From Lingula anatina (Eukaryota; Animalia; Brachiopoda), in assembly GCA_051362555.1 (NCBI GenBank), contig CM120640.1, forward strand, positions 68,984,788-69,048,787: DNA of 64,000 bases, given 5' to 3'. Both the position numbers and the translations under genes were made by a program. Below, one piece after another: positions 7,894 to 60,098 of this stretch. Positions within the stretch are counted from its first letter, which is position 1. Every line of letters starts with the position of its first letter. The notes beneath the pieces are model-generated. The model was not told where the DNA came from. It ran no database searches and worked only from the letters and a program-made list of their open reading frames with translations.

Positions 7894-7933
<40 letters not shown>

Positions 7934-30319: not shown

Positions 30320-31797
30320 TTAGAATTACCTGGTGCATGATGACACTCAAAAAAGGGCATTATAAACTTCAGATATGATCAATATTTCAGTAAAAATGAT
30401 GTTGTTGTACTGTGCTTCAAATTTACATATGGAAGCCAATGTTAAATCCTGATGAAAGCAACTTGAGTTGATATTTTAATCAAGCTATTTTATGTTTTGA
30501 TGCTTATCTTACAAGTGCTTACCAGTGTAATTTGATTAAAAAAGATATTACAGTGTTCAAGCGTATTGAATTTTTACTCTTAACAACTAATAGTATTTTT
30601 ATAACTTTGTATGTTAACATCCAAACCTGTTGGATGAAATAAAACTTGGGAATACAACTTGATGTTTAAGCATTTTGATGAGGGTTAAAGTAAATGGTAG
30701 ATTTTTCTGCTCTGAATGCATTTTATATGAATTGGTCCTTGGATAGAGGATTGAATAGGGATGCACAGTAATAATACAGCATAATTTTGAATCCAAGAAC
30801 AAGGCATTTGTCCTGTCAGATAGCAGTGGCAAAACTTCTGTAATATTTATATAATTAGCACATTGTATTACCCTTAATGGCTTTTTTTCTCAAAGAACTC
30901 TAGAATGGGCCTGATAAATCTCTGATCTGCAAAACTTTAGGTTTAACCATTATGCTATCTTTTTTCATAAATATTAAATTATACAAATTTAAAAAATGGA
31001 AAATTGCTAATGTTTTCACTAGTATCGATCATGTCCAGCATCTGGTACATGTCCTTTTATCAGCAGCTAAGATATAAACTGAGAATTTCCACTGTTTATG
31101 ATTGCAGAATTGTGGGCTTTAGGTGTCGCTTTCTACCAAACAGTTGTTTAATAAGAAATTTGCAGATATTCTAGCATGGGTATTTGAAATGTTATGCCAT
31201 TTTTGAAGTGGTCATATCCATGCTACACATCTCTAGGTAAAACCTGTGTAACAATTACACAATCAGAAAAGGTGGAGCTTGCTTCTTGTATGAGGACTTT
31301 GTGATTGATTTGTTATATGTTAAAATATCTCAGCCCAAACATTGATTTTTTACTAAGTTTCAGTTCATGATATTGATTTAGTACTCTGGAAAAAAATTAA
31401 GTGAAACGCCTGTCATTCAAAGTTGATTAATATCCAAAACGTTTCATGAAAAATATTTATTCATAGCTTACATTTGCTATTCAGTAAGTAAGTTGAATCC
31501 CATTACAACTCTTGTTTGTTTAATGCAAAACTTCCTTTGTTTACCCTATTGATTACTTGTTAGCAGTATTTCCCGTCTGTTGAAGTAAGGTCATTGAAAG
31601 TCCTAAACAATAGATTCATGCATGTTAAGATGGATCAATGAATCCACTCTTGAACCCTGTCAGAGTCTCATTTAGGTTGAGGCATGTCAATACTCGAGTA
31701 AGGTTTTTGCCCAAATTTCCTGTAGCAGTTTTTTCAAATTGGTAGAAACTTCGTACTTATACAACTCTACTAAGGTTGCATAAGAAGAGGAGACAGG

Positions 31798-34700
31798 ATG
31801 GGAATTTCCAGCATCTTGCTGGTAGTCCTTTTTCTTCAGGCTTCATTGGGGGTAGAATGGAATCCTGATGGCTCCTGTAAGAGTAGCATTCTTTACTCCC
31901 ACTTCACGGCATCCTCTGATATTTCCCGTCCTTTGCAGCACCTCCGAGACATCCACCACATCCGTCATGAACAGCAGTGCTCGGGATCTTGTATCACTGA
32001 ACAGGGGTGCCGCGTTTTCCATTATGACAAGGAAAAAATGGTCTGCTCTCTGTTTACTGACAATGGGCCAATAACACTGGACAATTATTATGTTGTCAAT
32101 ACAACCCAGGACTATAGAACTGTAAGTTGTGTATTTTGTTGTGAAGAATTTCACCTCTTTTGTAATAATGCATTTAATATAATATAATGTAATATTTAGA
32201 GAGTTTAAAAGTTTTGATCACTGAAAAACTATGAAGATGTATCCATGGGTACGAGTATCTATAATATCTGCAGCTCTAGTATTTAGACACTAGCTTTTCC
32301 TCTGATTCATGGAATTCAGGGATTATAAATTTTATTCTGATGGCAGCCCCCAAAACCCCTGTCGATTAAGTGAGCATTTAATATTTTTGTTATTTTTCAG
32401 TCAAGCAACATAAATTGATGTAAGCATTGTTGTTATGGTACAAATCGTAATGTTCAGGACTTGAGATGATGCTGTTTCTTCACTGTTAATAGTACAAGTA
32501 TTATCATCTTCATCTTTTTAGTTCTTAAGACACGCTGATTGTCCTTACTACACAGAGTGCAAGTTCGACCCTTATTGCCAGAATGACTGCCTGGACAAAG
32601 AAAACTTCACATGTGAATGCCCAACAAATAAGCATGGAAAAACATGTCTCCAAGGTAGAGTATCACAAATGAATTTGGGGCATAACATTTTTGTAAAGTT
32701 TTATGGATTATTTTTCCACGTAAATAAAATTTATAGTTTTTATAACTTTGACTTTGAGTATATTATATAATGAGTGTTTAAGATGAGCTTTATCATGTAG
32801 ACATATCCAATCTTTACTAAGCAGACCAGTTTGTTGAGATAACACATTTACTAACCATATCTTAAAAGTGAACAAACAATTTGTGTCAATTTCCTGAAGT
32901 GTATATATTATTTCATTTCTTGGTGGTTGATGACATTTCAGATTTCCAGCACGTCCCAGAGCTGGTGCAGACTATTCCTGTACATTATGGAGTCAATGGG
33001 GAACACATGACCATCAATGGAAAACACTACTTGATTATCGCCTCCAGGTAAATATATAAGCTAGTCTGACAAATATTTCAATTAGGGGATGATGTCAGAG
33101 AAAAAGGACAGAATGGCATTATTAATTATTTCAGATATAACCTATTTTAATGTTTGAAATATATTTGACATTGTCTTGAGGATTTCATACATGAAAAAAA
33201 AAATACATTCTTTATATACTTCATGATAATAGTGTTTTATTAATAAATGTCCAGATAGGTCTTTATCTAGGAGAATTTTTTGTGAATAACGTATATGCCA
33301 GTATAACAGTTAAAACAGTTATAGTTCAAAGCCAGCTGAATTTTTTAATCTGTTCTATATTTAAATTCTTTTTAAAAAAAATTAACCCATTTTAAATTAA
33401 AATTCTGTCTAGGTCCACCAAGTCCTGCTGTTGGACTTACGATGCAGGTCTGTCCAAAGTGTTTGTATATGAAGAGGTTCTGGAGAAATATGTGCACATG
33501 CAGAACTTGCTCCCCAGTAGTACAGCAGATCTCCAGGGGTTTGTCACTGAGGTAAAAATTGAGAACAGACAGCAGAGTAACAGATCTGCAGATCAAATAT
33601 GGCTGACCCACTGGAATGCGTGTTGCGTAATCCCTGTAGGGATTGTCTAATCAGGAATTAAGCAGCAAGCTTTTATATGGGTCGCCATATTTGATCTGTG
33701 GATCTGTTAGTCCGCTGTTCTGAATGTGCTCATTGACACATTGTTATATTACTATGTATTGTAACCTGTATGGTACCAAATGTTATATTTTAACCTCTAG
33801 TGGTACATCTGTGTTTCTTCATATTGTCTTTTATCCCATTACTTTCAACATTTGGTGTGTGGTGTTTGGCACACATGTTAGGAGAGCATACAATTGTTAA
33901 AAAAAAGAAGGAAAACAGAAAAGAGATAAAACTATTATAAAATTAAATACTTATAAAAAATAAAGTCTGGGAGAATGCTCATTTATTAATCTGATTAAAC
34001 TAATATAATGATGTAGACTGTATTTTCTACAAGCACAGTCACATATGAGATATATTGCATATTGTCTGCCAGCACCAATTTTATTGGCTCTTACTGAATA
34101 CATTGGAAAATTTGGTATTTTCAAAAAGACTCTTAAGTTATCAATATCATGAGGCCCATAATGCAATGTTCATAGAAGTAAATTGAGTAAAGCATTTGAA
34201 ATATTAACTGTGTCTCTGGGAGCATAGAAGCATGACAGGATGAATTGTTTGGAGCCAAGCTTATTCCAGTAGTTTTTTAATCAGGTCCTTTGTAAAGTGA
34301 GTGTGGTATAAACAATTATTGCTTCCATACAAAATCTATTGATTATGTTGGTAAAGCATTATTATCACACTGTTTGCTGTAGTTTCATTTTATTGATTAA
34401 TCTTTTGATGAAAAAAGGAATAAATACAGTGCACCAACGTCACAGAGGCAGGTCAATTCCTCATTCCATACACGATATTGATGGCTAAACGGTCTGATCT
34501 TGAACCATAGTGCCTTCACTTGCAGACCATTCATTTAGTTTGACAAAATCATAGAAATCTCTGAATGTGGTTGTAGCTTCCCAAGTACAGTAAACTTTAA
34601 TGTTAAATTATCATGCATAAACAGTCATTTCCAACAGCTGCTCTGTGTTAAATACAATGTTGATCCAAGCCAACCCAATTATTGATTTCAGCTTTCAGAT

Positions 34701-37700
34701 GGATCAATTTGGCTATTGTGTGTTTTTCCAATAATAATGATTAACAAATTCTTTACTTTGTAGATCAAAAATAGAAAAAAAAAGATGTTTTTCAATGTTT
34801 ATAACTTTGCGATTTTTAAAGTGGGAGCAAAGTTGCCAACAAAATAGAACACAGAATGCATGGATTTATTCTCTCATTAACAGCGGAATAAAACGTAAAA
34901 AATGGAAGTCTGTCCTAAATAGAATGTAGAAAGTGTGTAAATGCATAGAGTTGGCACTTCAGTGAAGACTTCCTGTTTATTTATACATCTGTCTTGCATC
35001 CTATGTCTTCTGTCCAGGCCATCCTAACGTTTTTTAAATTTAATAACTTTAGAAAGGATTGAGCTAAAATCACCAGACACTGAACAAATTGTTATCTTGG
35101 ATGAGCTTTTAAATACTTCATTTCAACATTGTTGAAGTTTATAGATTTGCTGTTACCTTACCTTTCAGATTTGCTGTTACCTTGTGGTTACCTAGTTGGT
35201 CTACATGTACTTTTCCTCTATTCCAGATTACTGCAATAAATCTTCGCAAACTCCTTAATCTCCTGTATAACCAGTGCTTTATAATAAACATTTTGGGCAT
35301 AATTTGTAATGATTCAAAATGCTTTAAAATACCAACTGTGTGATTTCCTCAACTGCAAAACAATTTTTATGTTGTTTAAGATATCAATATTTAAAATATA
35401 TGTTCCTTGTGACACCTATTCAGAAATTGTCATGTGTGTCATATAGTTATACATGTAAATATGTGTACTTTTTTCTTCAGGGCACTCACTATCTTATTAC
35501 AACAGCATATGAGGATCTGCCAGGCATAGCGGGAGGGAGTTCTAATGCCTTTGGAAATCCAACAGATAACACACTGTACAAATTTGAAGACACTGAAGGT
35601 AAAGTGGGCAGTTCTTGGTAAAATATTTCTAAAGAATATTTTTTTAAGTTTACATTGCCTGCAATTTGTGTATATGGGTGCATGTACTTTGCCACTTTCT
35701 CTGTGTCATCTTAGATTTTGAACTTTGCAGAAAATGAAAAAGATGCTTACATTATTACCAATTTTTTGTCTAGCCATTTTCCCTGAAATTGTCGCCATCA
35801 ATGCTGACCAGAAACTGACCTACATGGTGAAAATTGGAGGATCTTGGGAAATGCATGAATCTGAAACATGCTGCATGATGGCTGCAACTGTTCATCCCTC
35901 TGGCAATCTAGTTGGCATAACAACCGGCCGCTACATCCAAAGCAAACCTACTCTGGATTCTCCTTGGTATACCTTTTATTTTGTTTCATTTCTATCAAAT
36001 TTTTGTAATAATGATAAGATAAGTTTCAAGCTGCAAGCAGGGATAACTTGTCATATTTACCCAAAATCATGTTTGTTTGTTTTTTTTTTGTATCCTAATA
36101 TGCCATTAAAATGGCATATTTATATCCAATATAAGAACTTTCTTACCACAAATGAGAAGATTTGTTTCATGAAGTTTTCAAGAGTGATATCTACTATTTT
36201 TATGTACAGACACAGATGTGTCTGTACATATAGCCGTCATCTGCGTCTGTCGTCGCCGTTGCCGTCGTCGCCGTCGCCGTGCACTTTTACCGATAACACG
36301 ATAAGTGGAAAACTGTTTTTTCTTTTGGCTTGAAACTTACAGAACTGATGAATATTTGTAATACGCAGGTCAAGTTCGAAAATCAGCATGATCGGGTCAC
36401 TTATAGGGAATTTATGCTGTTTTTTCACTTTTTTCTGCATATATGCAGCACCGATAACACGATAAGTGGAAAACCATTTTACCTTTTGGCTTGAAACTTA
36501 CAGAACTGATGAATATTCATAATACGCAGGTTAAGTTCGAAAATCAGCATGATCGGGTCACTTATAGGGAATTTATGCTGTTTTTTCACTTTTTTCAGCA
36601 TATATGCAGCACCGATAACACGATAAGTGGAAAACCATTTTACCTTTTGGCTTGAAACTTACAGAACTGATGAATATTCATAATACGCAGGCCAAGTTCG
36701 AAAATCAGCGTGATTAGGTCATTTTTAGTGAATTTAGGCTATTTTTTCTCTTTTTTCAGCATATATGCAGCACCGATAACACAATAAATGGAAAACCATT
36801 TTACCTTTTGGCTTGAAACTTACAGAAATGATGAATATTCATAATACGCAGGTAAAGTTAGAAAATCAGCATGATCGGGCCATTTTTAGGGAAGTTTTGC
36901 TGTTTTTTCACTTCTTTCAACATATATGCAACGCTAATAACACAATATAAGAAAAACAGATAGGCCAATTGTCATTATACTCACAGGAGTAGTCAAACTA
37001 ACTAAAACGCAGGTTGAGTTCGAAAATCAGCATAATCGGGCCATTATTTTAGAAGTTATGCTGTTTTTTCACATTTCCTCAGATTCAATTGTTAGGCATG
37101 TTAACTGTCTCATTATTGAACTAATAAGATACGTAAAAGTGTTTGTTTGACATTTCCTGCATCTTAATAACATTGTTAGTTGATTATGTAAAAATGATGG
37201 TAAACTTGTTATTGTGTATTATGTTATAAAGTGTCAAAAATGGAAATAAATATCATTGCAGTTTGTCAGATTCAATCATCTACGATATTCATTATCTCAG
37301 AATGGAGGAAATTGGACATTTAACACTGTTCTATTGATATTTGTCCCATCTCATCAATTTTCTTAGTTGATCATATACAAATGGTAGAAAACTGTTTATT
37401 TTGTTTTATGTTAAAAAAGTGTTTTAAAAATGGAAGTAAACCCATTGCAGAACAGTGCTTTCTTGTTTCAGCATATATGCAGCACCGATAACACGATAAG
37501 TGGAAAACCATTTTACCTTTTCCCTTGAAACTTACAAAACTGATGAATATTCATATTACGCAGGTCAAGTTCGAAAATCAGCATGATCAGGTCATTTTTA
37601 GGGAAGTTGTGCTGTTTTTCACTTTTTTCACCATATATGCAACACTGATAACAGGATAAGTGAAAAATCATTTTACCTTTTGGCTTGAAACTTGCAGAAC

Positions 37701-40700
37701 TAATGAATATTCATATTACGCAGGTCAAGTTCGAAAATCAGCATGATCAGGTCATTTTTAGGGTAGTTATGCTGTTTTTTTCACTTTTTTCAGCATATAT
37801 GCAGCACCGATAACACGATAAGTGGAAAACCATTTTACCTTTTGGTTTCAAACTTACAGAACTGATGAATATTCATAATACGCAGGTCAAGTTTGAAAAT
37901 CAGCATGATCGGGTCATTTTTAGGGAAGAAATGCTGTTTTTACACTTTTTTCAGCATGTATGCAACACCTTTGTGCTATATGATGGTACTGTATGGATGG
38001 CAGCTAGTCTATAAAATTGTCCCTTGGGTGATCACTAATTAAATTAAGGTCTATAAAATCACTTGCCTACTCATTAATTTTCAATTGGCCATTAAATGAG
38101 ATTACATAAAACACTCCTTGAGATTTCCCTGTAAAGTCCCATAGGTTTAGCTCTCTTAACTGTGTCACAAAATTAGGATTTGGTGATAATTGTGCAGATA
38201 AATGGTGTTAAAGGGATAATAACTCTTCATTTCGGCCAAAAAATGAATTTTCCTGGAGTAAACAACAATTTTCCCATACTTACCAATGGTTAATGAATCC
38301 ATTTTTACATTCAAAGTTAGTCCCTGGTTTTTTTCTAAAAAGTTTGGTTTTTTGTTAAAATCTCTTAAGAGATTTTAAGAGACTATGGCCATCAATGGAG
38401 GTCACGTAGTCTAAAGACAAGCTCAGATATCAGAATAATAGCTATAACTGCCGTTTTTGTAGTAAAACAGAATATATTATATTTCTATGAGTTATTCACA
38501 ATGTTTTTGTTGTGAAATATAGATCTCATACAAAGAGTTATTATCCCTTTAAACATTGCAAATAAATTAACAACAAAAAGAATGTGTTATGCCAACATGC
38601 TATAGATGAATAACAGTGCTTTATTTTTCTCAAACTTGGTGGGGTTATTAATATCAAGTTAATACAGCTAGATTAAAAGTTTGAATAGCAGCTTTATTGG
38701 AATTTTTTACGTTTTATTTAAAATTTTTTTAAAATTATTTTTCAAACACTAGCATCTTCAAGATGTGATTTTTTACTCCCATCCAGCAGAAGTGCTGTGC
38801 ATTTTCTGTATTTTTTTGTATATAAGTCTTTTTTCCTCGGATTTAATTCTTAGGCATGTTAACAATCTCATTTGTGAACTAATTAGTAATGTAAAGGTGT
38901 TGTTTTGACATTTTCTGCATCTTAACAATATTGTTAGTTGATTATATAAAAATGATGGTAAACCTGTTATTGTGCATTGTGTAATAAAGTGTCAAAAATG
39001 GAAATAAACTCATATCTTTACAGTTTGTCAGATTCAATCATTCACCATGTTCAGAATCTCAGAATGGAACAAATTGGACATTTAAAATTGTTCTATTGAT
39101 ATTTTTCCTATGTCAACAACTTTCTTAGTTGATCATTTAAAAACGACAGTAAATTGATTATTTTGATATATGTAAAAAAAGTGTTGAAAGTGGAAAGAAA
39201 TTCATTTCAGTACAGTTATCTCTTGTGTACATTTTGGCATTTTGAAGTTGTGACTCTGAACTTCCATGGCCCTGAAGACCTTTCCATATCAAATTTTCTG
39301 AATATCCATGATACTTTTATTTTATTATTAAAAATTGATGGTCATTATGCTGTTAAGCATTATGTAATATTGCATCAAAATTGAAGACAACCCCATTTTA
39401 GACAATGCCTCCACAGTGACCATTAAAGGAAAACCAAGTCACTTACTCTTCTCAAACTTACAGAAATGTAGCATAGCATTAAATTATAGCTTCAGTTGGA
39501 AAACCTGTTATGTCGATTAACTTTCTTGGAAATTATATAGTTTTTTGTTACAATTAAAATTTTCACATATGGACATTTTCAAGGTGTGACTTAGTCTTTG
39601 AACTTCCATTGGCTTGAATACCATTGCTAGTCACATCTTTTGAATAGTTATGATACATTTACTTTATTATTAAAAATTGATGGCCATTGTGCTGTTAAGC
39701 ATTATGTTAAATTGCGTAAAAGATGAAAAAAAAACTTTTTTGGACATCGCTGCTGGGATGACCATTAAGGAAAAACCATTTTACTTATGATATTCTAACT
39801 TACTGAAAAGTTTCATAGGACTGAAGTGTAGCTTGTGTTGGAAATCAATGTGATTGTTTTCTGTTTTGGAAGCAATGCAGCTCTATGGAATGCTATATGG
39901 GGCTACTGTTTATGGATGGTGGTAATTGTCCATTAAATAAGATTACATAAAACACACGTTGAGATTTCCCATTCAAGTCCTATAGGTTAAGCTCTCTTAA
40001 CTGTGTCACATAATTAGGAATTGGTGATAATTATGCAGGTAAATGTTGTTTAATATTGCAAATAAGTTTACAAAAGAAAAAAAAATTGTGTAATGCCAAC
40101 ATTAATTCAATTCAATTCAATTCAATTTATTTCTGTACTGGTACATAGATTGTCATGACCTTGTACAATATGATATACAAATGATGATACAATACAGTTA
40201 GTGTATTACCATCTTTATATAATGAAGATAAGTACTAGTAAAATTACTCATAAAATATTCTAAACAATGAGATAAACCTTGGTGTGATTATAAATTTACC
40301 ATAAACATACCAGAAACATGTTACACAAAAAGAATATGTTTTTAAAGAACTTAAAACCACCGTTACATAGCTGTTTACATGGCTGTTTGATGACATTGAT
40401 AATTACGATTAATGACAATTACATAAGACATATAAGTAAATAAGTTACACAGATATAAATATTGTGCCATGTTCAGTCCCACTGCCGAGTCACTTCTCAC
40501 AACAGTGGGACCATACACTGACATTTTAAGGGATATGCTAAGAGTTACCAAGCAGAGCAACCACTTCACTTCTTTTCTTAAATGATTTGATTATAAAGTT
40601 GGAGAGGGACACTAAAGTATCTTTGTTGGCACTGTTAAATACATGGCATAATTGACTGTCTGGTGGCCTTGAATCAGCTTTTAGGAATGAGGTTTTACTG

Positions 40701-46700: not shown

Positions 46701-49700
46701 CAGATAATGTTAAAATTATCAGGATGGATCAAAAGTGGGTTAACTTAGAATCGATTAGATTTGGCGATGATCCATTAATTAATTGAATAATTAATGAGTA
46801 TTGAGCTGCCATGTCAGAGGTCTGAGCTCTCTGAGAGCTTTTCTAGTTTTCAGTATTTTCAGTATTTTGACATATGTAATGATATATGTCCTTTGACTAC
46901 TCTCAGATGCATTTGGGCACCGTTTTGATATCACCAGCAGTTATTTGGATGGGACAATATCAGAGTCCTCCCACTGCTGCACAAACAACCTAGCTGCTGA
47001 CTGCGGGACGGAGAATGGAGAGTAAGTGTATATGTCTGTGGGTCTTAAATTGGCTTTGACAGCATGCCATTCTGTTTGATGTTTAGAATTTTGCATGGAA
47101 TATGAGATGTCAGCTTCTGCACAGCAAGGGTAGGCTGAATAGGTCTGAATAGCTGTGTTAGGCAGAGCCATCTCCATCATACTAAAAGAAGAACTTTTGT
47201 TAAATTTAGGTGGTGTTTTCTTGTAACATATTACAAAAAGTCAAAAAGTTTTTGTTCCTTTTTTTAGGCTATTCACAAGTTATGGATCAACTATTGCTTG
47301 GTGTTCAAGCTCTAATGATGAATCTCAGTACCTTCAGGTTGATTTGGATGACATTTACCTGGTCTCTAGGGTTGCTGTTCAAGTAGGTGAAGTCAAACAT
47401 AACTGATTAAATGGTTAATGAACTGGAAGGACCCAAATTTTTGGCACCTATTTTTCATTCGAATGGAAAAAATCAATTTGGTATTGGTTTGGTAAATGGA
47501 AGAACTTTACTGAAACTAGAAAAAGAACTGAATACTGTTGTTTTTATGCTCTAAAATTGCAAAACAGTGGATTTGACATTTGCACCCTCTCTAGTTGAAA
47601 ATCAAAAATTCACCAAGCTAACCTGAAATATATTTGTTATGCTTGTAAAAGATCTTATCTTTAAAAAAACATATCTACTATTTACTGAGGGTTGTTGCTC
47701 GTTAACCAAATAATCAACTTTGTCTGGCCTTAGTTGCAAGTGAATCATAAAAAGCTTAAGAAGCAATCAAATATATATATAACCAAACAAACAACCAATG
47801 AAACAGAATAAATCAAAAGTCAGAGTTCATTTTCCATGACACCATATATTCCCTCCATGTATTATAATGGCATTTTTCTCTTTTTTTTCAAAGTTTTCTT
47901 GATTTTCAGTACAGTTGTTGTCATTACAACTCTGATGACATTGTTTACCAATGGAGAAGGACTACAAAATGCTGTATTAAAAAGGCTGAATTTGTATGAA
48001 TTCTATTGATAGATGTATAAACATTTGTACATTTGTTATAATGTACAAGAATATATATTTGTTCTATAGGTTTTTTTCCTAAAGAAATTTCTTTTCAAAA
48101 TATTATTCTGCATGACACATGTACAGTTTCTATATCTTTCAGGGACGGTATAATAGCAATCAGATGGCAAAAACTTACCAAGTGTTTTATTCTACTGATG
48201 GGACACATTTTGATTGTTATAGAGAGGATGTAAACTCTCACTGTATGGTAAGGTGTATAAAGATTCCAATTACTCATTCCCAATAGAATTATTGTTCTAC
48301 ATTGATCAATCCAAATCTGCGGGGACTTGCTGAATGCAATCAGATTAATGTCTGATAGAATACAGAAAATCTTGTGAAGAGGCATGTAAATCTGTTAATC
48401 TGAGTGCATTCAGCTGGAGTACCCCCGGATGGGTCAATCTACGATGAATGATAGTTTCTTTTGGAATGAGTAAAAGTATTAAATTGATAAATGTTTTGAG
48501 TATTTGTCTTCTTTCTTAAATAAATCATAGGTTTCGTTCACATTTCATTACTTCATATATATTATTTATATAACTAGATAGGCTTTGTATCCTTGGATCT
48601 TTTGGGGGTCAAAGAAGCAAGAAAATAGCTCTGTGTGTTTTTGTCCCATTCATTTATTCACACACATTGTTGGTGGTACCCACCCCAAAAGATGGCTGAC
48701 ACTTCTGAACGTCTACTTTTTTCTCTACATACGAATTTTGGAAGTTCTAAGAAATGAATTATTCAGTTGTTTGCCTTGTTAAATAAAATAAAACAGTGGC
48801 GTTTTATATATAAAAATGTTTTATATACACAAAATCATCCTTATCAAATTTAATGTAAGCCTATTTTAATATATGAAACTTTCTATAATTGCTTTATTAC
48901 AGACCATTCAACATGTCAAGATCCATTCTGTTTACTGAAAGTTTTTTACTTCCAGATGTTTTCTGCCAACCAAAATAGTTATGCCCATGTCCCTGTAGTT
49001 CAGTCATTTAACCACTCCGTGTATGCTAAACACATACGATTTAGATTCTGGTCTTGGGTAAACCATTTATCGGCTAAAGTAGGAGCTTTTGGCTATAAAC
49101 CAAGTAAGTTCCTCTGTTGAAAGCAAATAAAAAAATATGTCTGTTTAGTGAATAGTTTTTTTTTCTGTTGGTTCTCTCTCACATACCAGATCTGGTATCT
49201 GCTGTTATATTTATGAGGAAAAGAGTATTAGTTTTTGATCTTGCATAGTCTGACAAAAGATTTAGTAATAAGCAAATTGCATTACTGTTTGTGCTGTCCT
49301 TCACATGAAAAACCATGACAATTAGAATATAAGTCTCCATCTCCCAAATGATTAGAACTACAAGTGGATATATATGAAAATAAACACTTTTCCAGGCCGT
49401 TTCCTTCCTCACCAGAATTTAACCAATGCAGGTATCACAGGCACTTGTAGTTATAAGCGTAGTAATGGTGACATTGTCATGGTGCTGGCCCAGGAACACG
49501 ATGCTTGGTATAACACAGAAGTGGATACATACGGCTATGTCTATGTGTGGAACAAGGAGATGAAGATGTTCCTGAGCACGGCAGCACTTCCGGTATGTCG
49601 TTTACATTTTGAATATTCATGTCTTTGATTCAGAAAATGTATGTTTCAATTTTAGGTTTGGAGCAAATAGAAAATAATTGACAATTAAATCAGTACATCA

Positions 49701-52700
49701 AAAAAAAATGGTTAGCAATGAGTTCAAAGTCCAAAACTTTTCTTGAAATAAAGTTGGAATCAAATATCACTTAAAGGTACATCAAAACAGCTTTTTCTAA
49801 TGTGAAAAAAAGATGTATTGTTACCTCTTTTTTCCTTTTACTTAAGACCCCATATGGAGGCAGTGATTGCGGTTTGTTTGAGAGCAACAATACTATGCAT
49901 GCTGTTCTAAAAAGTGACCCAACCGATAGTCTTGTCTTCAAACTGCCTGATGCGATCACAAGACCTACCACAAGTAAATATTTTTTTTAAATTTTGATTG
50001 TATTACTTTTGCTGTTTGGCTGCAATCTTTTTTTTTTTCACGTTTTTACTCCATAGCCTGCAGGTGCTACCATCTGGATACAAAAAAAATATGTATAAAT
50101 AATGGTTGTAAATTGCACAACTTTGCCAGTCAGGCATTTTAGGCATTTTAGTTTTGATAAAACTGTAATGACTAGAGCCTAGATTGCAATGAAACTGTTA
50201 AGTGTTTTCACCAGGACAGCAGTTAAATGTTCTACCAAGTGGTACTTATATTGACTTCATATAACATTGAACATTGAGCATGTCATTATGTAGTAAAAAT
50301 GTTATTTCTCTTTTTTTTTAATTTGATTTTCAGTGTCAGTAATTGGAGAGGATATAGTGGCAACCACACGTAAAGATGCCAGTCCGCACTATTATGTGGT
50401 AAATTTGAGGCACATTTTCCCCTCTGATGGTAAGATCACTAATAGACTAAGATACAGCTAGAAGATTTTTCTGGAAATGTTAAATTATCCCCTCAATCAA
50501 CAAAAACCTTGAGCAAACTATGATCTGAATTGAGATGCATTTACATTATCATTCTCATATGCAACCATTATAAAACATAGTAAAACATAGTGAGCACACA
50601 ACTTGAATCTACATTGTTGCCCTTAATATATTATAAGGTAGCCTGCATTCCATTTATTTTCCCACAGGTGAGGTATTTGCCTGGCAATACTATGCCGCAG
50701 GTTCCGGGGGACCTTTGATTTTCTATATTTTCCGCCCTCTGTCTGGGACTTGTCAGTTTGAAATAGTGGGAGAATATAAGGTGAACTCAGTCAGAGAAAC
50801 TGGATATAGAGAGGTAAGACTATAGATCTACACTTTCACCTTTCATCATAAATGCAATTCCTGTTTATTGCATTCAATAAAGATTCATTCATCATAACAT
50901 TTTTGCTGTGAAAGTTACTTTGTTGTACATATTTTTGCTCCTGTGGAAAACAAATTATCTGAGTTAACCCAGTATGATTTTTTAGTGTAAAATCATTAGA
51001 GATCAACTTTTACCCTTATCGCTAAAAACTTAACCCCACTTCAGATGACAAAATTATCACACCTAGTCTCACTTTAGGCTATTTAGGCTATGTTTCCCGT
51101 TGCTGTATATATCTGGTCACCCTCACTGACATGAAGCTATTGTTGACATTTACAGAATGAAAACCTTGAATGTTCATTAATCACATTAAGAATGGTGTAT
51201 GTAATGTCATTCATGTAAGAAAAAGATAAATGAGTAAAAACATTAATATATCAGTGTGTTGGGCATTTGTGATGCTTTTAATGTATAGAATAGAACTACT
51301 AAGTAGCCTGCTTTTCAATTTTGTTATTACCTCTCTATAGGAATATTCTGATATACGACTTAAAAATACAACATCAATAAAATTCACAATTTCCCCATTG
51401 TCATTACCGTTACCGCAGTGTATGACATCACTTTCACCTAAGCATAATGTGTGACATTCAACTTCTTTCACTTCAGATAACTCTCCCTGTTAACCAGCGG
51501 ATGCGTGTTAAGGCAGGGGACCTGTTTGGTTTTGCATGGTTTGATACTGGGATTATGGGCTTTCCAAGTCATGACTGTGAGTGGTATAGACAGAGAAAGC
51601 AGTGAATTTAAACCAAAGACCTCACAACTTAGACTATTTGTTTTTTAATGTTAAAGGGGAAATCAAATTTGGTTTTAAACACTCGTGGACATGCCAGTCA
51701 GTACTTAAATAACAGAAAAATATCAGTTTCTGTATCAAACTCCTCAAACTTCATTTGCGTCTGTAACATTTTTTTCTAAATAGTTCTTCTAGGAACCCAT
51801 GTACTTCATCTACTAATAAGATAAAAATATGTGCATAAAATCTCTCCCACCCTCATATCCATCTGTTGCATTTCTAATTATTATTCAACATATACAGGGA
51901 ATGTTACAATACCAACCTTGATGCCTTAACATCTCTTTCTATTTCAGCTACCATGCAGGATGTGTATCTTCCCCTGGCTGCAAGCATCTGTCTGGCATCA
52001 CATGGTGGCACAGCTCCTACTGCTGGTCAAACTGTGACGCTTTCGACTGATTCCCCAAGATATTACTCTATGAGAGCAATATGGCAGCCATACAATGGTG
52101 GGTTCATCACACAATGTGGTGATATTATATTGACACAAAGACAAAGATTGCGATGTCATGCTATATTGCACAGATATACCTCCTGTTGTTCAATATGATT
52201 TTCGAAAAGAAAACCAAATTTCCTATTAAAAGATTTGTAAAACTAATAATTAAATATATCTCTAAGCGAAGTACAAAATGCACAGAAAAGTGATACACAT
52301 TCAATATATAAAAAAAACAGACTTGGGATTTCGTGATTTTCATCAGCCTTTAAAGATTTGAAAGGTCATCATCAATCCAGCATTTCCATTATGTTTTGTA
52401 TATAAAGATGTATGTATGTATGTACAGCCATTTTTGTTTCTTACAGATTCCAATAGTCCCCAAGCTCTGGGTATGGAGAGTGGTGCTATCCCAGATAGTG
52501 CCCTCAGTGCTAGTCATTCACACGGTGACTGCCACCTCACCAGAGCCAGGTTGAACTATTTTGATGACACTATCATTGGCAATTCTTGGTGTGGTCTTAC
52601 TTCTGGCACCTACTGGTTACAGATAGACTTACAGGATTACTACATGGTCACTGGGGCTGCCTCTCAGGTGATTCAGTTCTATACCAGTATAGACTCTGAC

Positions 52701-52841
52701 TGTAGCTGAGGTCAATATTTTATTTTTAAAATTATTCTATTGACTCTGCTTCTTGACTCAGTTCTCTACCAGTGTAGACCCCGACTATAGCTGAGGTCAA
52801 AATCCTGGGGATTAAAGTGGTGTGTGTGTGTGTGTGTGGGT

Positions 52842-52893
<52 letters not shown>

Positions 52894-55800
52894 TTGGGGG
52901 GGGGGTCACCAGAGGTCACACCTAATATTTTGGTTCTAAAATATTGTAAAAAAAATGTAATTGAAATTTTTAAAATTCAACATTACTATTCTATTGGCTC
53001 TGCCCCTGTTTGCATTTAGTGTATGTACGTAAAGATCCCAACTGTTTTGTTGTAAATTGTTAAGCTAAGTTATGGAGAACTCTGGACATAGATATAAAAA
53101 AATGAAATACGTCAGACATTTGTCAGACAATTTCAAGTAAGGAGGAGACTATTCAAAAGTTAAAACATTTCTGTATAGTCAGTCTTTTCCTCGCATTGAT
53201 ACAATTTTTTCACTCTAACAGGGACGTCCTCCCACCAGTGTTTGGTCTAGTCCAGGACAGTGGGTCACCCAGTACGAGCTTCACTTTTCAACAGATGGAA
53301 CTCAGTTTTCATGTTACAAAGATCAACAGGCATCGTGCAGGGTAAGAAATAACATCCCAGTGGGAAATAGTTTTATTTAAAAAAAAGAAATTGATTAAAG
53401 GTGGCAAGGCATCACGTGTTGTGGCAATAGACAATATAACTCATCTATCATTGAGAGACAGAAGTTATCTTTGTTCTATTTACCCTCTTTTCACCTTCTT
53501 TAGAAAGAGGCCTTCAATGTACCATCAGCTTGTGAAATTCCATTCGACAGAAACTTTTTTGAAAAATCTTTTTTCATGTTTTTCTAGGCATGACAGATTG
53601 AAGTCAAGTTTGCCATTTGTAATTTATTTCAGGCATTTACAGGCAATTCCAACCCCACAGCAGTTGTCCACAATGACCTCCCTAAACCATACTTGGCTCG
53701 CTATGTCCGCTTCTATCCCAAAGCTATATACGGCTATGGTTCCATGAGGGTAGAGCTATATGGATACCCTACAGGTAAGTTACGGGAAATTTTTTTCTTC
53801 CACTATTGATATAAGGAAGGGATGAAAGTTGTACATTCTTGTACATTGTGCACAGTATGGTCTTAACTAGTATATGCATAGGCCAACATCACAATTTAAA
53901 TGTCAGATTTTTAGATGATTTTTAATTTAACAAATTGTTTTTGGGGAATTTGAAATTGCTTGCTTAAGCACAGTTGCACATTTAGTGTAACACAAAAACT
54001 GGTCAGTCTCCCCTCAATACAACCAGATCGCCGTGTGGTTTGAGTGAGCCCAAGGAGGCAAGAACAGCAACACCCAGTCTGCATCGGGACCAAAAATAAG
54101 AGGGTGTCTAATGGAATTAAACCACACTGAAATGCACGTGGAGTGTGGTTTACAAGAAATGAACCTTACTTTAATTTGTGATTTGTGGTGATGTAAATTT
54201 GCATATCTTTTAGAAAATAAAAATGACATATAATTAATAATATCTTTTGTTCTGTATTGTTTTCATATTTGAGTGGTATGCAGTCATATGTCCATGTGAA
54301 GTCAAAGATTCTGCTTGACAGAGCACTTGTCTTTTTTGTTGTCCTGTTGAATAACTGAATCTTTTCTTTCTATTTTTCTATTGAAGACTGGAGTATGCTG
54401 GCAGCAGTTCCTAACAGTCAAGGTGGAAAATCTGTTGATGTCACAGAGTTCAGTGGAGAGGTATTTGCGGCTGTGACAAAAACAAGCACCATGACAGTCT
54501 CTAAATGGAACACAAACACCCAAGCATTTGACGAAATCCAGAATTTAAATGTTGGGCCTACTGCAGCAAAACCATCCTTCTTTAAAGCAGGTAATATTTT
54601 ACATTCATGGGCTGGTATATATAGGCATGCAACACAGTCTGTTTTAGTTTGTGAGATAAATATGAAAATTAGAGGACAGATATCTCCGTCCAAATAAGGC
54701 CACACTTTTTTATTTTTATGGATGACATCCTGCGCGTGCACCGATTTTCATCCGTTCTCCGGAAAAAAAAAAAAATTCTCCCCCCCCCCCCCCCTCCAAC
54801 GAAGTCGGTTGTCGCAAACGTCGTTATTGAATTTGCCCGAAAAATGAGCTTTCTGCGCATGCGTATTATCGCCACGTAGAAATATGGCCGCTTTGCTGTC
54901 AAATTCATCTCTAGGATTACTTTCAAATTACACGACAATTAATTATGTAAAGTCATAAAGAGAATGGGGCCGTTGTTTTGGATTGTTATGCCATTGATAT
55001 TGGGCATGGAGATATCCACTTTTTTACAATTATGCGAAAGGCTGGCGGTGGCCAGCGATTATCGCCCGGAAAATTTCAGTGACATTCTGTCCAAAGCAGC
55101 ACATACCAGGTTTTTTTGTAGCGAAAAAAGGGTTGACAGGGCGTCAAGGTATTTGGTGGGCAGAAGGTCGGTCAGGCCACCCGACAGTTTGGCTGTTTCC
55201 TGTGAGTCGAAGTAGACCAAATGACATTGACCGAAATTACCTTTTATAGATTTGGTGGTATTAAGCATATCTTAGCATCATTTTAAAGATTTCTGTGAAG
55301 TGTTCATAATGCTTTAATATTCTGAGTACAAATAAAGACACACTGTTTGTTTGATATTTGTTTTATTGATTGTTATACCAACAAAATGCATGAAATAAGC
55401 TAAATAGATTTGGTAATAGGCAGCATATATATCTATCAGGCCCGTAGCCAGCAATTTCAAAAGGGGGGTACTTTTTCTGAAAAAGTTGACCTTTTTCCAT
55501 AAAAACTTCATGTACCTAGATCAAATTTTACCCAGAGTGGACCTTTTCCCAGCAAAAGGGGTGGTTCTTTCTACTCTCCACCCCCCCCCCACCCCCCCAC
55601 CCCCCGGCTTCGGGCCTCTCTATTCATGACTTTTTTTTACCTTTCTACGAAGTATTCACAATGCTTAAATATTTTGAGAGCATGGATAAAGACATATTGT
55701 TAGTTTAATATGTGTTTCTGTGGTAAATTTGTGTTTCCAGCTGTGTACTGACAGCATTCCTTTACTTAAATAGCATTTTTTTTTTTTTAACTGTTCTTTT

Positions 55801-56439
55801 TTTTTTTTTTTCGCCCTCTCGCACCGATTTCGGGGTCCCAAGAGGATGTCATCCATAAAAATAAAAAAGTGTGGCCTAAACCAAATCTTAGGATTTGTGG
55901 GATAAAATTCTTAATTTTATTTAGATTGTAAAAATAGATTGGTTGTAGAAATAACATTTATGTAGATCACATGCAGAACCTTCAGGAGTATACAAGGTAA
56001 AGGACTTCAGTTTCACTGGCCAAAATGAATTGAGAGTGGAGTCTAGATGTTTTTGCACAGTGGTTGGGTTAATTGGTCATGTTATTGAATAAATTTTTTT
56101 TTTTTTTAACAAAGGAGAAAAGTCCATTGAACTGTTCTTACATTCCTAAAAATCCAACAGTAGTGTTCACATTACTCGTTTCTATTGATTACAGGTGGCA
56201 AGCTGTACCTGACCGCAGCAGACGAAAATGCATCCCAAGTGACCAACCCAGTCTATGTATGGGACGGGAGTAGTTGGTCGTCCCACACCACACTGGACGG
56301 ACACAGTGCCAAAGCCATCATTCCTTTCCAGCGTGACCGGGACACTTTCCTGGCTGTGCTGAACTACTTCAGTGATCAGCATTCCAGTTCTCATGCCAGA
56401 CACTATGATGCCTACCCCTTCATATACAAGTGGGCTTGA
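31798..56439 (+). CDS. Uncharacterised secreted mosaic protein (~1213 aa): SP-PAN-EGF-EARx2-[CC-repeat propeller-FA58C]-EARx2-[unnamed domain-FA58C]-EARx3
   Basis: 23 GT-AG exons, all phases consistent, 3642 nt with no internal stop: 31798-32121, 32522-32654, 32942-33047, 33413-33551, 35481-35598, 35774-35966, 45542-45678, 46032-46292, 46907-47021, 47268-47382, 48143-48247, 48956-49103, 49396-49592, 49847-49973, 50334-50429, 50668-50813, 51477-51576, 51948-52097, 52447-52667, 53222-53341, 53633-53774, 54387-54590, 56195-56439. Motifs: signal peptide MGISSILLVVLFLQASLG; PAN C-x3-C-x5-C..F.Y..C.L; EGF C.C..G..C; discoidin LGMESGAIPDS / WC / LQIDL / QGR / ARYVRF.P / MRVELYG. Confidence 0.85.
33561..33731. 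mobile_element. MITE with long internal inverted repeat, related to 30154-30319
   Basis: taacagatctgcagatcaaatatggc / gccatatttgatctgtggatctgtta inverted pair; ATT on both flanks. Confidence 0.6.
36290..37075. repeat. 161-bp tandem satellite, ~5 copies
   Basis: Unit start ccgataacac at 36290, 36451, 36612, 36773, and diverged at 36934. Confidence 0.9.
37485..37968. repeat. Second array of the same ~161-bp satellite, 3 copies
   Basis: Unit starts at 37485, 37645 and 37807. Confidence 0.88.
38212..38548. mobile_element. Kolobok-like MITE (TTAA target)
   Basis: 16-bp TIR AGGGATAATAACTCTT / AAGAGTTATTATCCCT; TTAA at 38208-38211 and 38549-38552. Paralogous segments near 40050 and 44360 lack the insert. 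Confidence 0.8.
40107..43716 (-). mobile_element. 5'-truncated RTEX-like non-LTR retrotransposon
   Basis: APE remnant (GDFNART, IVDY, SDH), RT (FIDFSKAFDSV, GVKQGDTLSP, LLYADD, YLG) and C-terminal CRLC..EDEYHFIFQC. One in-frame TAA at 43361-43363. AATAAA followed by a (TTGAA)4 tail. TSD ATTAAT at 40101-40106 and 43717-43722. Confidence 0.92.
40538..43312 (-). CDS. ORF2 remnant (reverse transcriptase) of the truncated LINE
   Basis: 924-aa open frame with RT motifs; in frame with ORF 43361-43690 across a single stop. Confidence 0.85.
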   Translation of the reverse strand: MYSTIPYFHVNDLSIFSDHALLELKLYCKTTYNKHTKSIQLIPKPTKFIWENNSHIKFVEALGNMESKQKVDYFMSQALSPEEALPLVNEIFTTAAERALKSRKYTSVHPRKNKKRATWYSNDLKSLRSHLKNLAKLRSKKPFDNSVNASYYQTFNRYKRGCKKAKKEYKKGLLQKLQSMENANPKCFWKAVKDLNMESTQTEFIEPSEFYEYFKSLCEETESSKHNFDKDFKLKIENKLRQSEMNSPDRTALDHDISADEIMSNIKKLKNGKSTGEDKVTNEMIKSGKDYLIDVIVKLFNIIYKSAKYPSIWNKAYIVPIHKSGDESNVNNYRGISITSCLGKLYNSVLLNRIQAHASQQGVPLPHQTGFKHGHGTSDNIFIFKSIITKFMKGKKKLYTCFIDFSKAFDSVWRNGLLFKLSTLGIRGLMYKNIKSMYENSQACVKTSSGIFPAFNTTLGVKQGDTLSPFLFNIFIDDLLRSIDSESAASPDINGIPIQGLLYADDLILMSKTPNGLRQSLEIVENFCNKWRLTVNVTKTKVVIFNSKSKAHSENFFLYGKPIQEVNKYMYLGLLLNRSGSFTETKNNLLQRATKAFFSLSKSLPLQSNVNTSLKEKLFDTLISPILTYCSEIWGYSVSTDNCPTEKLHLKFCKQILGLHQNVSNYGVYTELGRLPLYTKIQFASVKLWCKIIQMSDATLMKQAYIQEINSYKLLTPYVPPAVHTLRPACMSWSEGIRKILFTFGLGDVWLSQSPPKNFTTIFKQRQTDHFTQICNSKLQANSKLSLFRILNQKCERATYVDKITNYDTLSTLAKLRLSDHKLHIETGRHTRPKTERCDRICRLCTQGVIEDEYHFIFQCPMYKTDRVTFFSKTSFLKADSRPPDSQLCHVFNSANKDTLVSLSNFIIKSFKKRSEVVALLGNS
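44016..44183. mobile_element. CAGGGG-terminal MITE, copy 1 within a tandem duplication
   Basis: caggggtggat..gatctgctccag flanked by TTATTG on both sides; homologous to 4763-4944. Confidence 0.7.
44759..44926. mobile_element. CAGGGG-terminal MITE, copy 2 (duplicated together with its flanks)
   Basis: Near-identical to 44016-44183, with the same TTATTG flanks. Confidence 0.7.
52821..52893. repeat. (TG)n microsatellite
   Basis: Read directly from the sequence. Confidence 0.95.
54698..55876. mobile_element. PIF/Harbinger-like non-autonomous element, ~1.18 kb
   Basis: Perfect 34-bp TIR GGCCACACTTTTTTATTTTTATGGATGACATCCT; TAA at 54695-54697 and 55877-55879. Confidence 0.88.
55437..55617. mobile_element. 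Small hAT-like MITE nested in the Harbinger-like element
   Basis: caggcccgtagcc / ggcttcgggcct termini with a C-rich subterminal tract. Confidence 0.55.
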
Positions 56440-58514: not shown

Positions 58515-58568
58515 TCCTGAAACCAGTCAAACATTTTCAATGAACTGCAGTACCATACAGTACTGTAG

Positions 58569-59600: not shown

Positions 59601-60098
59601 ATATGAACTGCATAAACTATTGAACGATACAGATGGACTTTAAAAGATAAAGTAAAACTGAGACCTCTCAGTAACGATGAATCTCAATATATAACATACT
59701 GGTACCATATACATAATTAAGCCTCTCAAAAGCATTCAATAAAGAAGCCGAAGAAGATGGGCTGTGGTAAGTCAATGTAGACAGTTAAGTAATTGTAAAG
59801 CAATGTAGTTATTAAGCTGTTGTTTGTTATCAGTTGATAGAGTTACATCCAAATAGATTAAATGCAATACTAGATTACTGAGTTTAAACAATTATAGTTA
59901 TTACGTCAATGGAATTTGTTTCAATGGATCAAAGTTGATTTTAAATGCAATCAATACCTATAGTTTGAAAAATGGTATAAACGCAGTAAACAATCCAGTC
60001 TAAAAGACTGAAAATGATACAATTGAATCTAGAAAGCTTGCATAGACGTAAGACAGTTAAAATACTAGAAGCTCTGAAGCATCCAATATTTCAGTAGT

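What the first reader, a model, noticed from the sequence alone, without database searches (positions are those of the whole stretch)
31798..56439. Secreted mosaic protein built on a discontinuous seven-bladed EAR/EPTP propeller carrying inserted lectin-like domains
Seen: the spliced 1213-aa protein has exactly seven EAR-like units (pattern F/Y..Q.l...g...e.f...g..yL..a....vy.W): PELVQTIP..KHYLIIAS..KVFVYEE; KYVHMQNL..THYLITT..LYKFED; RFLPHQNL..VMVLAQ..YVYVWN; MFLSTAALP..HAVL..LVFKL; DWSMLAAVP..VFAAV..VSKWN; AFDEIQNL..LYLTAA..VYVWDG; SWSSHTTL..FLAVLNY..FIYKW. They fall in blocks of 2+2+3, separated by ~360-aa and ~325-aa insertions. Known: in LGI1-4, TSPEAR and ADGRV1 the seven EAR repeats are contiguous and form one propeller, and PAN, discoidin and tectonin-type folds often bind glycans or lipids. 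Inference: the seven blades reassemble into one propeller hub that displays two discoidins, a second propeller and an unnamed domain from its inter-blade loops, giving a multivalent recognition protein (immune, adhesive or matrix). I do not recognise this architecture from any named protein.
Basis: partly seen in the sequence, partly recalled or inferred. Interest (0 to 1): 0.88.

Follow-up and report, generated by a model that had tools for sequence, protein, structure and literature searches.

The report
Seven-blade propeller split by lectin-like inserts
A probably invertebrate gene holds all seven repeats of the ring-shaped domain known from the human epilepsy protein LGI1, broken into three pieces by two large inserts of likely sugar- or lipid-binding domains; the pieces are predicted to re-close into one ring in a secreted protein, and the first insert looks like a once-separate gene that may be spliced in only some of the time.

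Summary
A 23-exon, all GT-AG model gives 1213 aa. A profile built from 460 EPTP units of other proteins ranks exactly the seven proposed units first, 13.6 bits above the eighth peak. In 67 EPTP proteins checked, no seven-unit set is interrupted by more than 76 residues. All seven module borders from EGF onward are phase-1 introns, so the inserts probably arrived by exon shuffling. By LGI1's strand register, both inserts sit in a blade's C-D turn, so the blocks would swap strands to close one ring; this could not be folded. New: insert 1 is bracketed like a whole gene, with an in-frame ATG and signal-like peptide before it and a stop plus AATAAA after it, and its exons 10-12 were nearly unread in four runs that read exons 13-22. 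The 1213-aa form is therefore likely but unproven; an 855-aa 4+3 form is the main rival. Reads support 4 of 22 introns, none at a module border. The scan noted EPTP propellers in 11 other genomes; none of the eight notes shown describes an interrupted one. New variant of a known kind.

The parts
31798..32121 (+). Exon 1: signal peptide (aa 1-18) and PAN/apple domain
   Evidence: PAN_1 30.2 bits, cut-off 21.4; only strongly hydrophobic 19-mer of the protein; RNA depth 1.36 in X12 in the bin 31500-32146
32522..32654 (+). Exon 2: EGF-like domain
   Evidence: EGF 17.4 bits, under the cut-off 21.5; 7 Cys
32942..35598 (+). Exons 3-5 (32942-33047, 33413-33551, 35481-35598): EAR block 1, units 1-2 (aa 156-273)
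   Evidence: EPTP 25.2 bits on exon 3; units score 28.7 and 18.4 bits
35731..35773 (+). Strongest acceptor of intron 5 (exon would start 35731), ATG at 35734 and a signal-peptide-like frame running into exon 6: vestigial or alternative start of insert 1
   Evidence: Acceptor score 6.8 against 1.9 for the in-frame acceptor at 35774; hydrophobicity 2.87 against 3.0 for exon 1 and at most 1.73 for the 6 other exons with an upstream in-frame Met
35774..46292 (+). Exons 6-8 (35774-35966, 45542-45678, 46032-46292): tectonin-like domain, five 39-aa repeats each ending in Cys-Cys (aa 274-470)
   Evidence: Repeats aligned; exon 8 matches Tectonin 2 (5fsb) at E 5.6e-4; relatives P0103-P0105 at 36-56%
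36289..37969 (.). 161-bp tandem repeat arrays in intron 6 (dispersed, highly transcribed elsewhere)
40538..43714 (-). LINE-type retroelement in intron 6 (940-aa reverse transcriptase frame 40538-43360; short frame to 43714 probably its endonuclease end)
   Evidence: RVT_1 131.9 bits; the short frame had no Pfam hit at 1e-5
46907..49103 (+). Exons 9-12 (46907-47021, 47268-47382, 48143-48247, 48956-49103): discoidin (F5/8 C) domain 1, divergent Cys-rich start (aa 471-631)
   Evidence: Pfam F5/8 on exons 10-12; 49 of 176 columns identical to domain 2
49104..49131 (+). Read-through of exon 12: stop at 49118-49120 and AATAAA at 49126-49131, a possible own end of insert 1
   Evidence: Nearest stop-to-AATAAA distance of 22 exons (5 nt; next 50 nt; 1.5 per kb in introns); it lies in an A-run and the exon 12 donor is strong (9.7)
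49396..49973 (+). Exons 13-14 (49396-49592, 49847-49973): EAR block 2, units 3-4 (aa 632-737)
   Evidence: 12.8 and 2.4 bits; MAFFT puts exon 14 in EAR register; intron 13 read by 4 reads
50334..52097 (+). Exons 15-18 (50334-50429, 50668-50813, 51477-51576, 51948-52097): unnamed domain, 164 aa, 2 Cys (aa 740-903)
   Evidence: No match for the exons tried in Pfam, NCBIfam, PDB sequences, plasmids or metagenomes; intron 17 read by 2+2 reads
52447..53774 (+). Exons 19-21 (52447-52667, 53222-53341, 53633-53774): discoidin (F5/8 C) domain 2 (aa 904-1064)
   Evidence: Pfam F5/8 on all three exons; relatives at 39-48%; intron 19 joint read by 4+1 reads
54387..56439 (+). Exons 22-23 (54387-54590, 56195-56439): EAR block 3, units 5-7 (aa 1064-1213) and stop
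   Evidence: 5.0, 24.0 and 26.0 bits; exon 23 model matches LGI1 best, Z 7.6, rmsd 1.6 over 64 residues; intron 22 read by 5 reads

Best explanation
This gene has seven EAR/EPTP repeats split 2+2+3 by two inserts, and the repeats likely close into one seven-bladed ring in a probably secreted protein that would display likely sugar- or lipid-binding domains on one face. Shown: the repeats, the inserts, the phase-1 borders, low-level spliced transcription of exons 13-23. Inferred origin: an ancestral signal-PAN-EGF-EAR7 gene, like a coral protein found here, took up two phase-1 cassettes; insert 1 (tectonin-like plus discoidin) was probably a whole small gene that became spliced in and may still be optional, insert 2 (unnamed domain plus discoidin) is integral. 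Inferred structure: each sequence unit is strand D of one blade plus strands A-C of the next, so both inserts leave and re-enter at a C-D turn (blades 2 and 4), the same kind of position where the normal chain ends lie (blade 7). The ring would be held by three strand-swapping closures, with PAN-EGF and the two inserts hanging from one face at spacings of 2, 2 and 3 blades, and the opposite face free. Inferred function: a cross-linker that grips glycans or membranes with the discoidin, tectonin-like and PAN domains and a protein partner with the free face, in mucus, matrix or innate recognition.
For: Seven top peaks are the seven units, 13.6 bits clear of the next; each beats 300 of 300 in-place shuffles. 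Of 67 EPTP proteins, 46 have 7 units, 2 have 14, 2 have 28, 2 have 8 and 15 have fewer than 7: seven is the family's unit. 7 of 8 module borders are phase 1 against 4 of 14 internal introns (Fisher p 0.012); all 16 keep-or-drop combinations of the four inserted modules stay in frame, down to a 530-aa insert-free form. Porites lobata CAH3111713.1 (P0136) has a weak PAN match (15 bits, cut-off 21.4), EGFs and an unbroken seven-unit set. The exon 23 model has a four-residue turn between strands 16-22 and 27-34, which is the unit border, and LGI1 is the best match in both fold searches. LGI1's N-terminal strand completes blade 7 (PMC5906670); loops 1-2 and 3-4 share one face and most propellers bind at the other (PMC2716378). 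Reads lie on exons, on the expected strand, and support introns 13, 17, 19 and 22. The exon 12 donor is strong (9.7), which favours splicing from insert 1 on to exon 13. A few reads fall in bins holding exons 5-6, 8 and 10 in X18 or X19.
Against: No module-border intron is shown by reads; 18 of 22 introns are unsupported. The in-frame acceptor of exon 6 is weak (1.9) and lies behind three stronger out-of-frame AGs (3.5, 4.0, 6.8); the exon 6 donor is the weakest of 22 (-2.8). Exons 10-12 had at most 69 bases of cover against about 1880 expected from exons 13-22 in four runs (few, clumped reads). X12 reads exons 1-2 and 13-22 but nothing in the bins of exons 5-6, 8 and 10. Units 4 and 5 are weak. 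No full-length relative was found, so the layout is not shown to be conserved. The exon 23 model was built on an EPTP alignment, so its match to LGI1 is partly circular, its Z is under 8 and no Foldseek row reached E 0.001. No unit keeps the D-x-E pair of LGI1's calcium site (read).
Confidence: 0.6

Rival explanations
1. Two genes on one strand: a host of exons 1-5 and 13-23 (855 aa, ring split 4+3 by insert 2 only) and, nested in its 13.8-kb intron, a separate secreted tectonin-discoidin gene (ATG 35734 to stop 49120). The 1213-aa chain is never made. The ring is still discontinuous, but once.
For: Signal-like start exactly at the first exon of insert 1 (1 of 22 exons) and the nearest stop plus AATAAA exactly at its last exon (1 of 22). 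A Ptychodera flava relative (XP_070571614.1) starts with a signal peptide directly before the same repeats and aligns from its residue 1 to window 35746 onward (E 7e-4). Exon 5 to exon 13 is in frame. Uneven RNA cover. Insert 2 has no such marks.
Against: Exon 12 keeps a strong donor at the same place as the end of discoidin 2 (9.7 and 12.1), which a gene ending there would not need. No promoter or non-coding first exon is shown; intron 5 is 175 bp. Pyrimidine tracts read as hydrophobic residues, so false signal peptides occur (P0011 begins with such a stretch). The AATAAA lies in an A-run, 5 nt from the stop. Read numbers are very small.
Confidence: 0.22
2. Two transcripts in tandem: exons 1-5 (signal, PAN, EGF, two units) and exons 6-23 from ATG 35734 (five units). 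Their products would complete one ring in trans, or the five-unit protein forms some other oligomer.
For: The ATG and strong acceptor at 35731-35734; strong exon 12 donor; propeller fragments can assemble as oligomers (PMC6805158).
Against: Exon 5 ends in a good donor (8.4) at the unit border in the shared phase; its read-through stop has no AATAAA within 1161 nt; only about 110 bp separate that stop from the ATG. In PMC6805158 mixed fragments did not form hetero-oligomers.
Confidence: 0.08
3. One chain is made, but the blocks close rings with blocks of other copies, giving strand-swapped dimers or a network rather than one ring per chain.
For: The blocks are 325-358 residues apart and would each have open strand edges; the order of units carries no signal in profile or pairwise tests; LGI1 works as a higher-order assembly (PMC5906670).
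Against: Seven units per chain fit one ring per chain; each insert is made of modules with their ends probably close together (inference); V. cholerae sialidase closes one interrupted ring in one chain (PMC2716378).
Confidence: 0.07
4. A decaying gene or a chance string of exons that makes no working protein.
For: Very low expression; absent from protein collections that do hold the neighbouring NUDIX protein; weak sites around exon 6 and a repeat-filled intron 6.
Against: 3642 bases of exons without a stop or frameshift; spliced reads; paired cysteines in every module; a 96-aa relative at 43% ending at the same place (P0011).
Confidence: 0.03

Closest known systems
EPTP/EAR domain of LGI1-4, TSPEAR and ADGRV1 (Pfam PF03736; LGI1 structures 5y2z, 5y31)
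   Same: Seven units of the same repeat; secreted setting; exon 23 model closest to LGI1.
   Different: Units split 2+2+3 by 358 and 325 aa; no LRR, laminin G or membrane helix; no D-x-E calcium pair; other partner domains.
Coral EGF-EPTP proteins (Porites lobata CAH3111713.1 = P0136; CAH3035348.1 = P0122)
   Same: Probable PAN, then EGF, then seven EAR units: the same backbone as this gene without its inserts.
   Different: Units unbroken; no tectonin or discoidin; pairwise likeness of the PAN-EGF part is not above chance, so orthology is not shown.
Vibrio cholerae sialidase (1w0p), the 'type 2' interrupted Asp-box propeller of PMC2716378
   Same: One propeller interrupted by an inserted lectin-like domain, with a further lectin-like domain outside it.
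   Different: Other propeller family, an enzyme, one insert of one domain; here two inserts of two domains each, one itself a probable propeller.
Integrin alpha-I domain and the DDB1 propeller cluster (both recalled, not read here)
   Same: A domain, or a whole propeller, inserted within a propeller.
   Different: FG-GAP or WD40-like blades; the I domain is recalled to sit between blades on the top face, whereas these inserts are inferred at C-D turns on the bottom face.
Tectonin-type lectins (Tectonin 2, 5fsb; Pfam PF19193) and Ptychodera flava XP_070571614.1
   Same: Repeat pattern of insert 1; the P. flava domain is placed with tectonins by the Atlas (0.92, 185 of 256 features).
   Different: Five repeats here and a Cys-Cys pair per repeat; six blades are recalled for solved tectonins; binding untested.

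Membership tests
EPTP/EAR repeat family (PF03736) | Profile match at or above the curated cut-off | tested here: met
   Exon 3, 25.2 bits against 21; 1 of 7 EAR exons passes alone; home-built profile 63.2 bits on the whole protein
EPTP/EAR repeat family (PF03736) | Seven repeat units | tested here: met
   Peaks 1-7 of the scan; no eighth in exons or introns
EPTP/EAR repeat family (PF03736) | Folds as one seven-bladed propeller | tested here: inconclusive
   Only exon 23 was modelled (pLDDT 82, six strands; LGI1 Z 7.6, rmsd 1.6, 64 aligned), on an EPTP alignment; the whole ring was not modelled
EPTP/EAR repeat family (PF03736) | N-terminal strand closes blade 7 | not testable with these tools
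   Sequence register fits (unit 1 begins with a D-type strand, unit 7 ends after a C-type strand); no model of the closure
Canonical contiguous EPTP domain (usual layout, not a profile criterion) | Seven units in one unbroken run | tested here: not met
   Gaps of 358 and 325 aa; largest gap inside a set among 67 relatives is 76 aa (P0086), 46 aa in P0042
LGI1-4 | LRR domain before the EPTP domain | tested here: not met
   No LRR match on any of 23 exons; PAN and EGF instead
LGI1-4 | Central calcium site (D334, E336, D381, E383 in LGI1; PMC5906670) | tested here: not met
   At the matching positions no unit has D-x-E (N-E, D-Q, G-C, D-G, S-D, K-S, A-I; read; mapping inferred)
TSPEAR / ADGRV1 | Laminin G domain (TSPEAR); membrane helices (ADGRV1; recalled) | tested here: not met
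   No laminin G match on 23 exons; no internal hydrophobic 19-mer above 1.32
Tectonin lectins (PF19193) | Profile match | tested here: inconclusive
   Exon 8 alone 17.7 bits against 30; its relatives P0103 and P0104 pass (47.1, 46.0); Tectonin 2 at E 5.6e-4
Tectonin lectins (PF19193) | Six blades (recalled) | tested here: not met
   Five repeats by sequence; blade number not modelled
Tectonin lectins (PF19193) | Binds glycans | not testable with these tools
   Needs a binding assay
Discoidin / F5/8 type C (PF00754) | Profile match across the domain | tested here: met
   6 of 7 exons match in profile order (positions 23-118 and 13-127), each under the cut-off as a piece; all 10 relatives found carry PF00754
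Interrupted propellers ('type 2' of PMC2716378, by analogy) | One ring whose blades are separated by an inserted domain | tested here: inconclusive
   Sequence layout met; single ring not modelled

The most novel reading that the evidence does not exclude
The first EAR/EPTP propeller built from three separate blocks, caught in the act of swallowing a neighbour: a complete signal-tectonin-discoidin gene nested in a phase-1 intron at a blade's C-D turn still has its own start and end, so one locus yields a free lectin, an 855-aa 4+3 ring and a 1213-aa 2+2+3 ring, with frame-safe cassette skipping able to change the ring's binding arms.
Probability: 0.25. Interest if true: 0.78.

Novelty: new variant of a known kind. 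Interest (0 to 1): 0.6.

Why it matters
EAR/EPTP domains are known as one unbroken run of seven repeats. If this ring closes, the fold tolerates insertions of over 300 residues at C-D turns, the same kind of position as its natural ends; that is a natural lesson in propeller folding and a hint for building multivalent scaffolds. If insert 1 is also a working gene of its own, the locus shows directly how a nested gene becomes an inserted domain, a step usually only inferred. Both points can be settled by one long-read experiment and one full-length model. The biological role remains an inference from domain content.

Tried and rejected
Whole-protein fold: the spliced protein is not held by any search collection, so it was not modelled. 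Complex prediction of exon pieces from different blocks was not available: no verdict. A single-sequence model of the tectonin relative P0103 failed (pLDDT 33). Order of units: a full seven-unit profile scored other block orders as well as or better than the real one, and 13 to 146 of 150 random unit orders matched seven targets as well as the real order: uninformative. Replacing block 2 by shuffled or insert sequence gave best-domain scores of about 50 bits, against 52.1 plus 49.3 in two pieces for the real join: not a clean test. Unnamed domain: no match for exons 15-18 in Pfam or NCBIfam, nor for exon 16 in PDB sequences, metagenome contigs, plasmids (best E 2) or earlier findings; the Atlas could not read it; exon-sized queries are weak, so this is no proof of a new fold. 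A likeness to DUF4082-type sandwiches is recalled only and was not tested. Exon 8 found no locus in genome contigs. No RNA holder was listed in the run index. The first read lay was swamped by intron repeats: 15 of 312 joint rows were shown, all from repeats. No whole genome is held, so paralogues were not sought. Extra blades hidden in introns: none above noise.

Full report
Setting. The window is AT-rich spliced animal DNA (GC 0.30-0.41). The gene lies on the + strand between a SKA1 gene and a NUDIX gene. Its nearest named animal relative for the tectonin part is a Ptychodera flava protein, so a marine invertebrate is likely; this is inference. No whole genome is held.

The gene model. Order: signal peptide, PAN, EGF, EAR units 1-2, tectonin-like domain, discoidin 1, EAR units 3-4, unnamed domain, discoidin 2, EAR units 5-7. 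Pfam on the 23 exons singly gave PAN_1 above its cut-off, EGF and Tectonin below theirs, F5/8 on 6 of the 7 discoidin exons in profile order, and EPTP on exon 3 alone of the 7 EAR exons. The only strongly hydrophobic 19-residue window is the N-terminus.

Are there seven EAR units? Exon 23 was searched against 1.84 billion representatives and returned 100 proteins. I ran Pfam on 83 of these 100 and on three tectonin relatives; most carry EPTP, and 17 of them were WD40, other propellers or had no EPTP match. From 460 units of 64 proteins, leaving out the close fragment P0011, I built a repeat profile. hmmsearch found six units in the model, all at proposed places. A whole-unit scan ranked the seven proposed units as peaks 1-7, from 28.7 down to 2.4 bits, with peak 8 at -11.2. 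In 40 shuffles of the protein the best peak averaged -6.4 and reached 5.4, so units 4 and 5 are not significant as lone hits; they count because they sit in exact register beside stronger units, and each unit beat 300 of 300 in-place shuffles. MAFFT placed exon 14, the weakest, in EAR register on its own. Six-frame searches found no further unit in the introns. A model of exon 23 on a 19-row EPTP alignment (pLDDT 82) matched LGI1 first in both fold searches (Z 7.6, rmsd 1.6, 64 aligned; Foldseek E 0.097, none under 0.001); this is partly circular.

Is the split unusual? Of 67 proteins with EPTP units, 46 have 7, two have 14, two have 28, two have 8 and 15 have fewer than 7; gaps over 40 residues fall between sets of seven, except 46 aa in P0042 and 76 and 56 aa in P0086. 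A further 31 cluster members show no gap over 40 inside a set. None of the EPTP proteins scanned carries F5/8 or Tectonin. The sample is biased to relatives of exon 23 and is mostly unnamed or bacterial. Nine literature searches listed no paper on an interrupted EAR domain or on EPTP with discoidin or tectonin; the larger result sets were seen only in their top 12-25 rows, and subscription journals are not covered. Interrupted propellers as such are known: PMC2716378 (passages read) names V. cholerae sialidase as one propeller interrupted by a lectin-like domain.

How the ring would close. In LGI1 the N-terminal strand joins the three C-terminal strands to make blade 7 (PMC5906670, passages read; PMC3691968, passages read). 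Each sequence unit is thus strand D of one blade and strands A-C of the next, and the exon 23 model shows the unit border as a short turn between two strands. Both inserts fall at unit borders, so they leave from the C-D turn of blades 2 and 4. It means that no block is made of whole blades: each lends a strand to the block before it. Loops 1-2 and 3-4 share one face and most propellers bind at the other (PMC2716378), so PAN-EGF and both inserts would hang from one face and leave the other free. All of this is inference; the ring was not modelled. LGI1's calcium ligands are not kept.

How it arose. Seven of eight module borders are phase-1 introns against 4 of 14 internal ones (p 0.012), the pattern recalled for shuffled extracellular modules. 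All 16 keep-or-drop combinations of the four inserted modules stay in frame, and dropping all four gives a 530-aa signal-PAN-EGF-EAR7 protein. A coral protein has that backbone unbroken: weak PAN match, EGFs, seven units (P0136), though pairwise likeness of the front part is not above chance. The two discoidins share intron positions and 49 of 176 columns, so they are an old duplicate or two copies of one family.

Intron 5's strongest acceptor (6.8) is out of frame with exon 5 and lies three bases before an ATG that opens a signal-like peptide in frame with exon 6; the in-frame acceptor scores 1.9, within the range of the gene's weaker sites. Seven of 22 exons have an upstream in-frame Met, and only this one is as hydrophobic as the true signal peptide. 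At the other end, reading through the exon 12 donor gives a stop with AATAAA 5 bases later, the closest of 22 exons. These two marks bracket insert 1 exactly; insert 2 has neither. The P. flava relative is a signal peptide followed directly by the same repeats. Against a purely nested gene: the exon 12 donor is strong, the AATAAA is in an A-run, and pyrimidine tracts can mimic signal peptides.

RNA. Seven of nine listed RNA runs were laid, 6-30% of each. Expression is low. In the stranded runs reads lie on exons 13-22 in the sense expected. Four of 22 introns are supported: 19 as a joint (4+1 reads), 13 and 22 as loose ends that match the next exon (4 and 5 reads), 17 by 2+2 reads with other letters at the joint, under the tool's three-read bar. 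None is a module border. Exons 10-12 had at most 69 bases of cover against about 1880 expected in X12, X13, X14 and X20 (I left out two repeat-filled bins, the plus-strand depth of the stranded runs and one intron read; reads are few and clumped). X12 reads exons 1-2 but not the bins of exons 5-6, 8 and 10, whereas X18 and X19 have one to a few reads there. This leans towards skipping of insert 1 in some samples and does not prove it.

Function. From domain content only: a secreted, membrane-free protein with PAN, discoidin and tectonin-like domains, which in other proteins bind glycans, lipids or proteins (recalled). The most likely role is a multivalent cross-linker in mucus, matrix or innate recognition. 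No ligand is shown.

Verdict. Real, and not found in the relatives or papers examined. One chain with one ring and both inserts, at least in some transcripts: 0.60. Host with insert 2 only plus a nested gene: 0.22. Two tandem transcripts: 0.08. Strand-swapped oligomers: 0.07. Decaying gene: 0.03. An interrupted EAR ring of some form follows in the first two cases, about 0.8. PMC6805158 (passages read) shows that propeller fragments can form homo-oligomers but did not form mixed ones. Other papers were seen as search listings only; no supplements were read, and domain-architecture tables in supplements of invertebrate genome papers could hold this protein unnoticed. The names CFAP53, NUDT19 and ATP8B for neighbours, and the integrin, DDB1, DUF4082 and six-blade tectonin comparisons, are recalled.

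Noticed in passing
window 1-8030 (-), 23157-25720 (-), 27419-29500 (+), 57381-58526 (-): Neighbours: a phospholipid-translocating ATPase, a TPH-domain gene (CFAP53-like, name recalled), SKA1 and a single-frame NUDIX gene (NUDT19-like, recalled). SKA1, CFAP53 and ATP8B1 are recalled to lie on human 18q21, which would be old synteny.
   Followed up: partly
window 58569-63578 (+): An apparently intact LINE: a 343-aa frame with a GDSL/SGNH esterase-like domain followed by a 1166-aa endonuclease plus reverse transcriptase frame.
   Followed up: partly
window 40538-43714 (-): A second LINE inside intron 6, antisense to the gene, with a 940-aa reverse transcriptase frame and a stop separating it from a short upstream frame.
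   Followed up: partly
window 46034-46291 versus P0103: The tectonin-like repeats are 56% identical to those of an unnamed protein that looks bacterial (M57 peptidase plus five repeats), closer than to the P. flava relative (36%). Gene transfer or repeat uniformity; not tested.
   Followed up: no
P0011 (Logan contig, 1838 bp): A 96-aa fragment 43% identical to exon 23 that begins at the same exon border and ends at the same W-x-stop: a related gene exists in another genome or as a paralogue.
   Followed up: partly
P0015, P0022, P0045 clusters: Corals (Porites) hold many unbroken seven-unit EPTP proteins, some behind EGF domains; one 90% cluster has 74 members.
   Followed up: partly
window 36289-37969, 38000-40200, 43800-45090: A 161-bp tandem repeat and other dispersed repeats in intron 6 draw read depths of hundreds to over a thousand, most reads only 90-95% alike, so they are transcribed from copies elsewhere.
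   Followed up: no
window 51570-51576, 51986-52048: RNA reads differ from the window at several exon positions, including the last bases of exon 17; alleles are the simplest reading.
   Followed up: no
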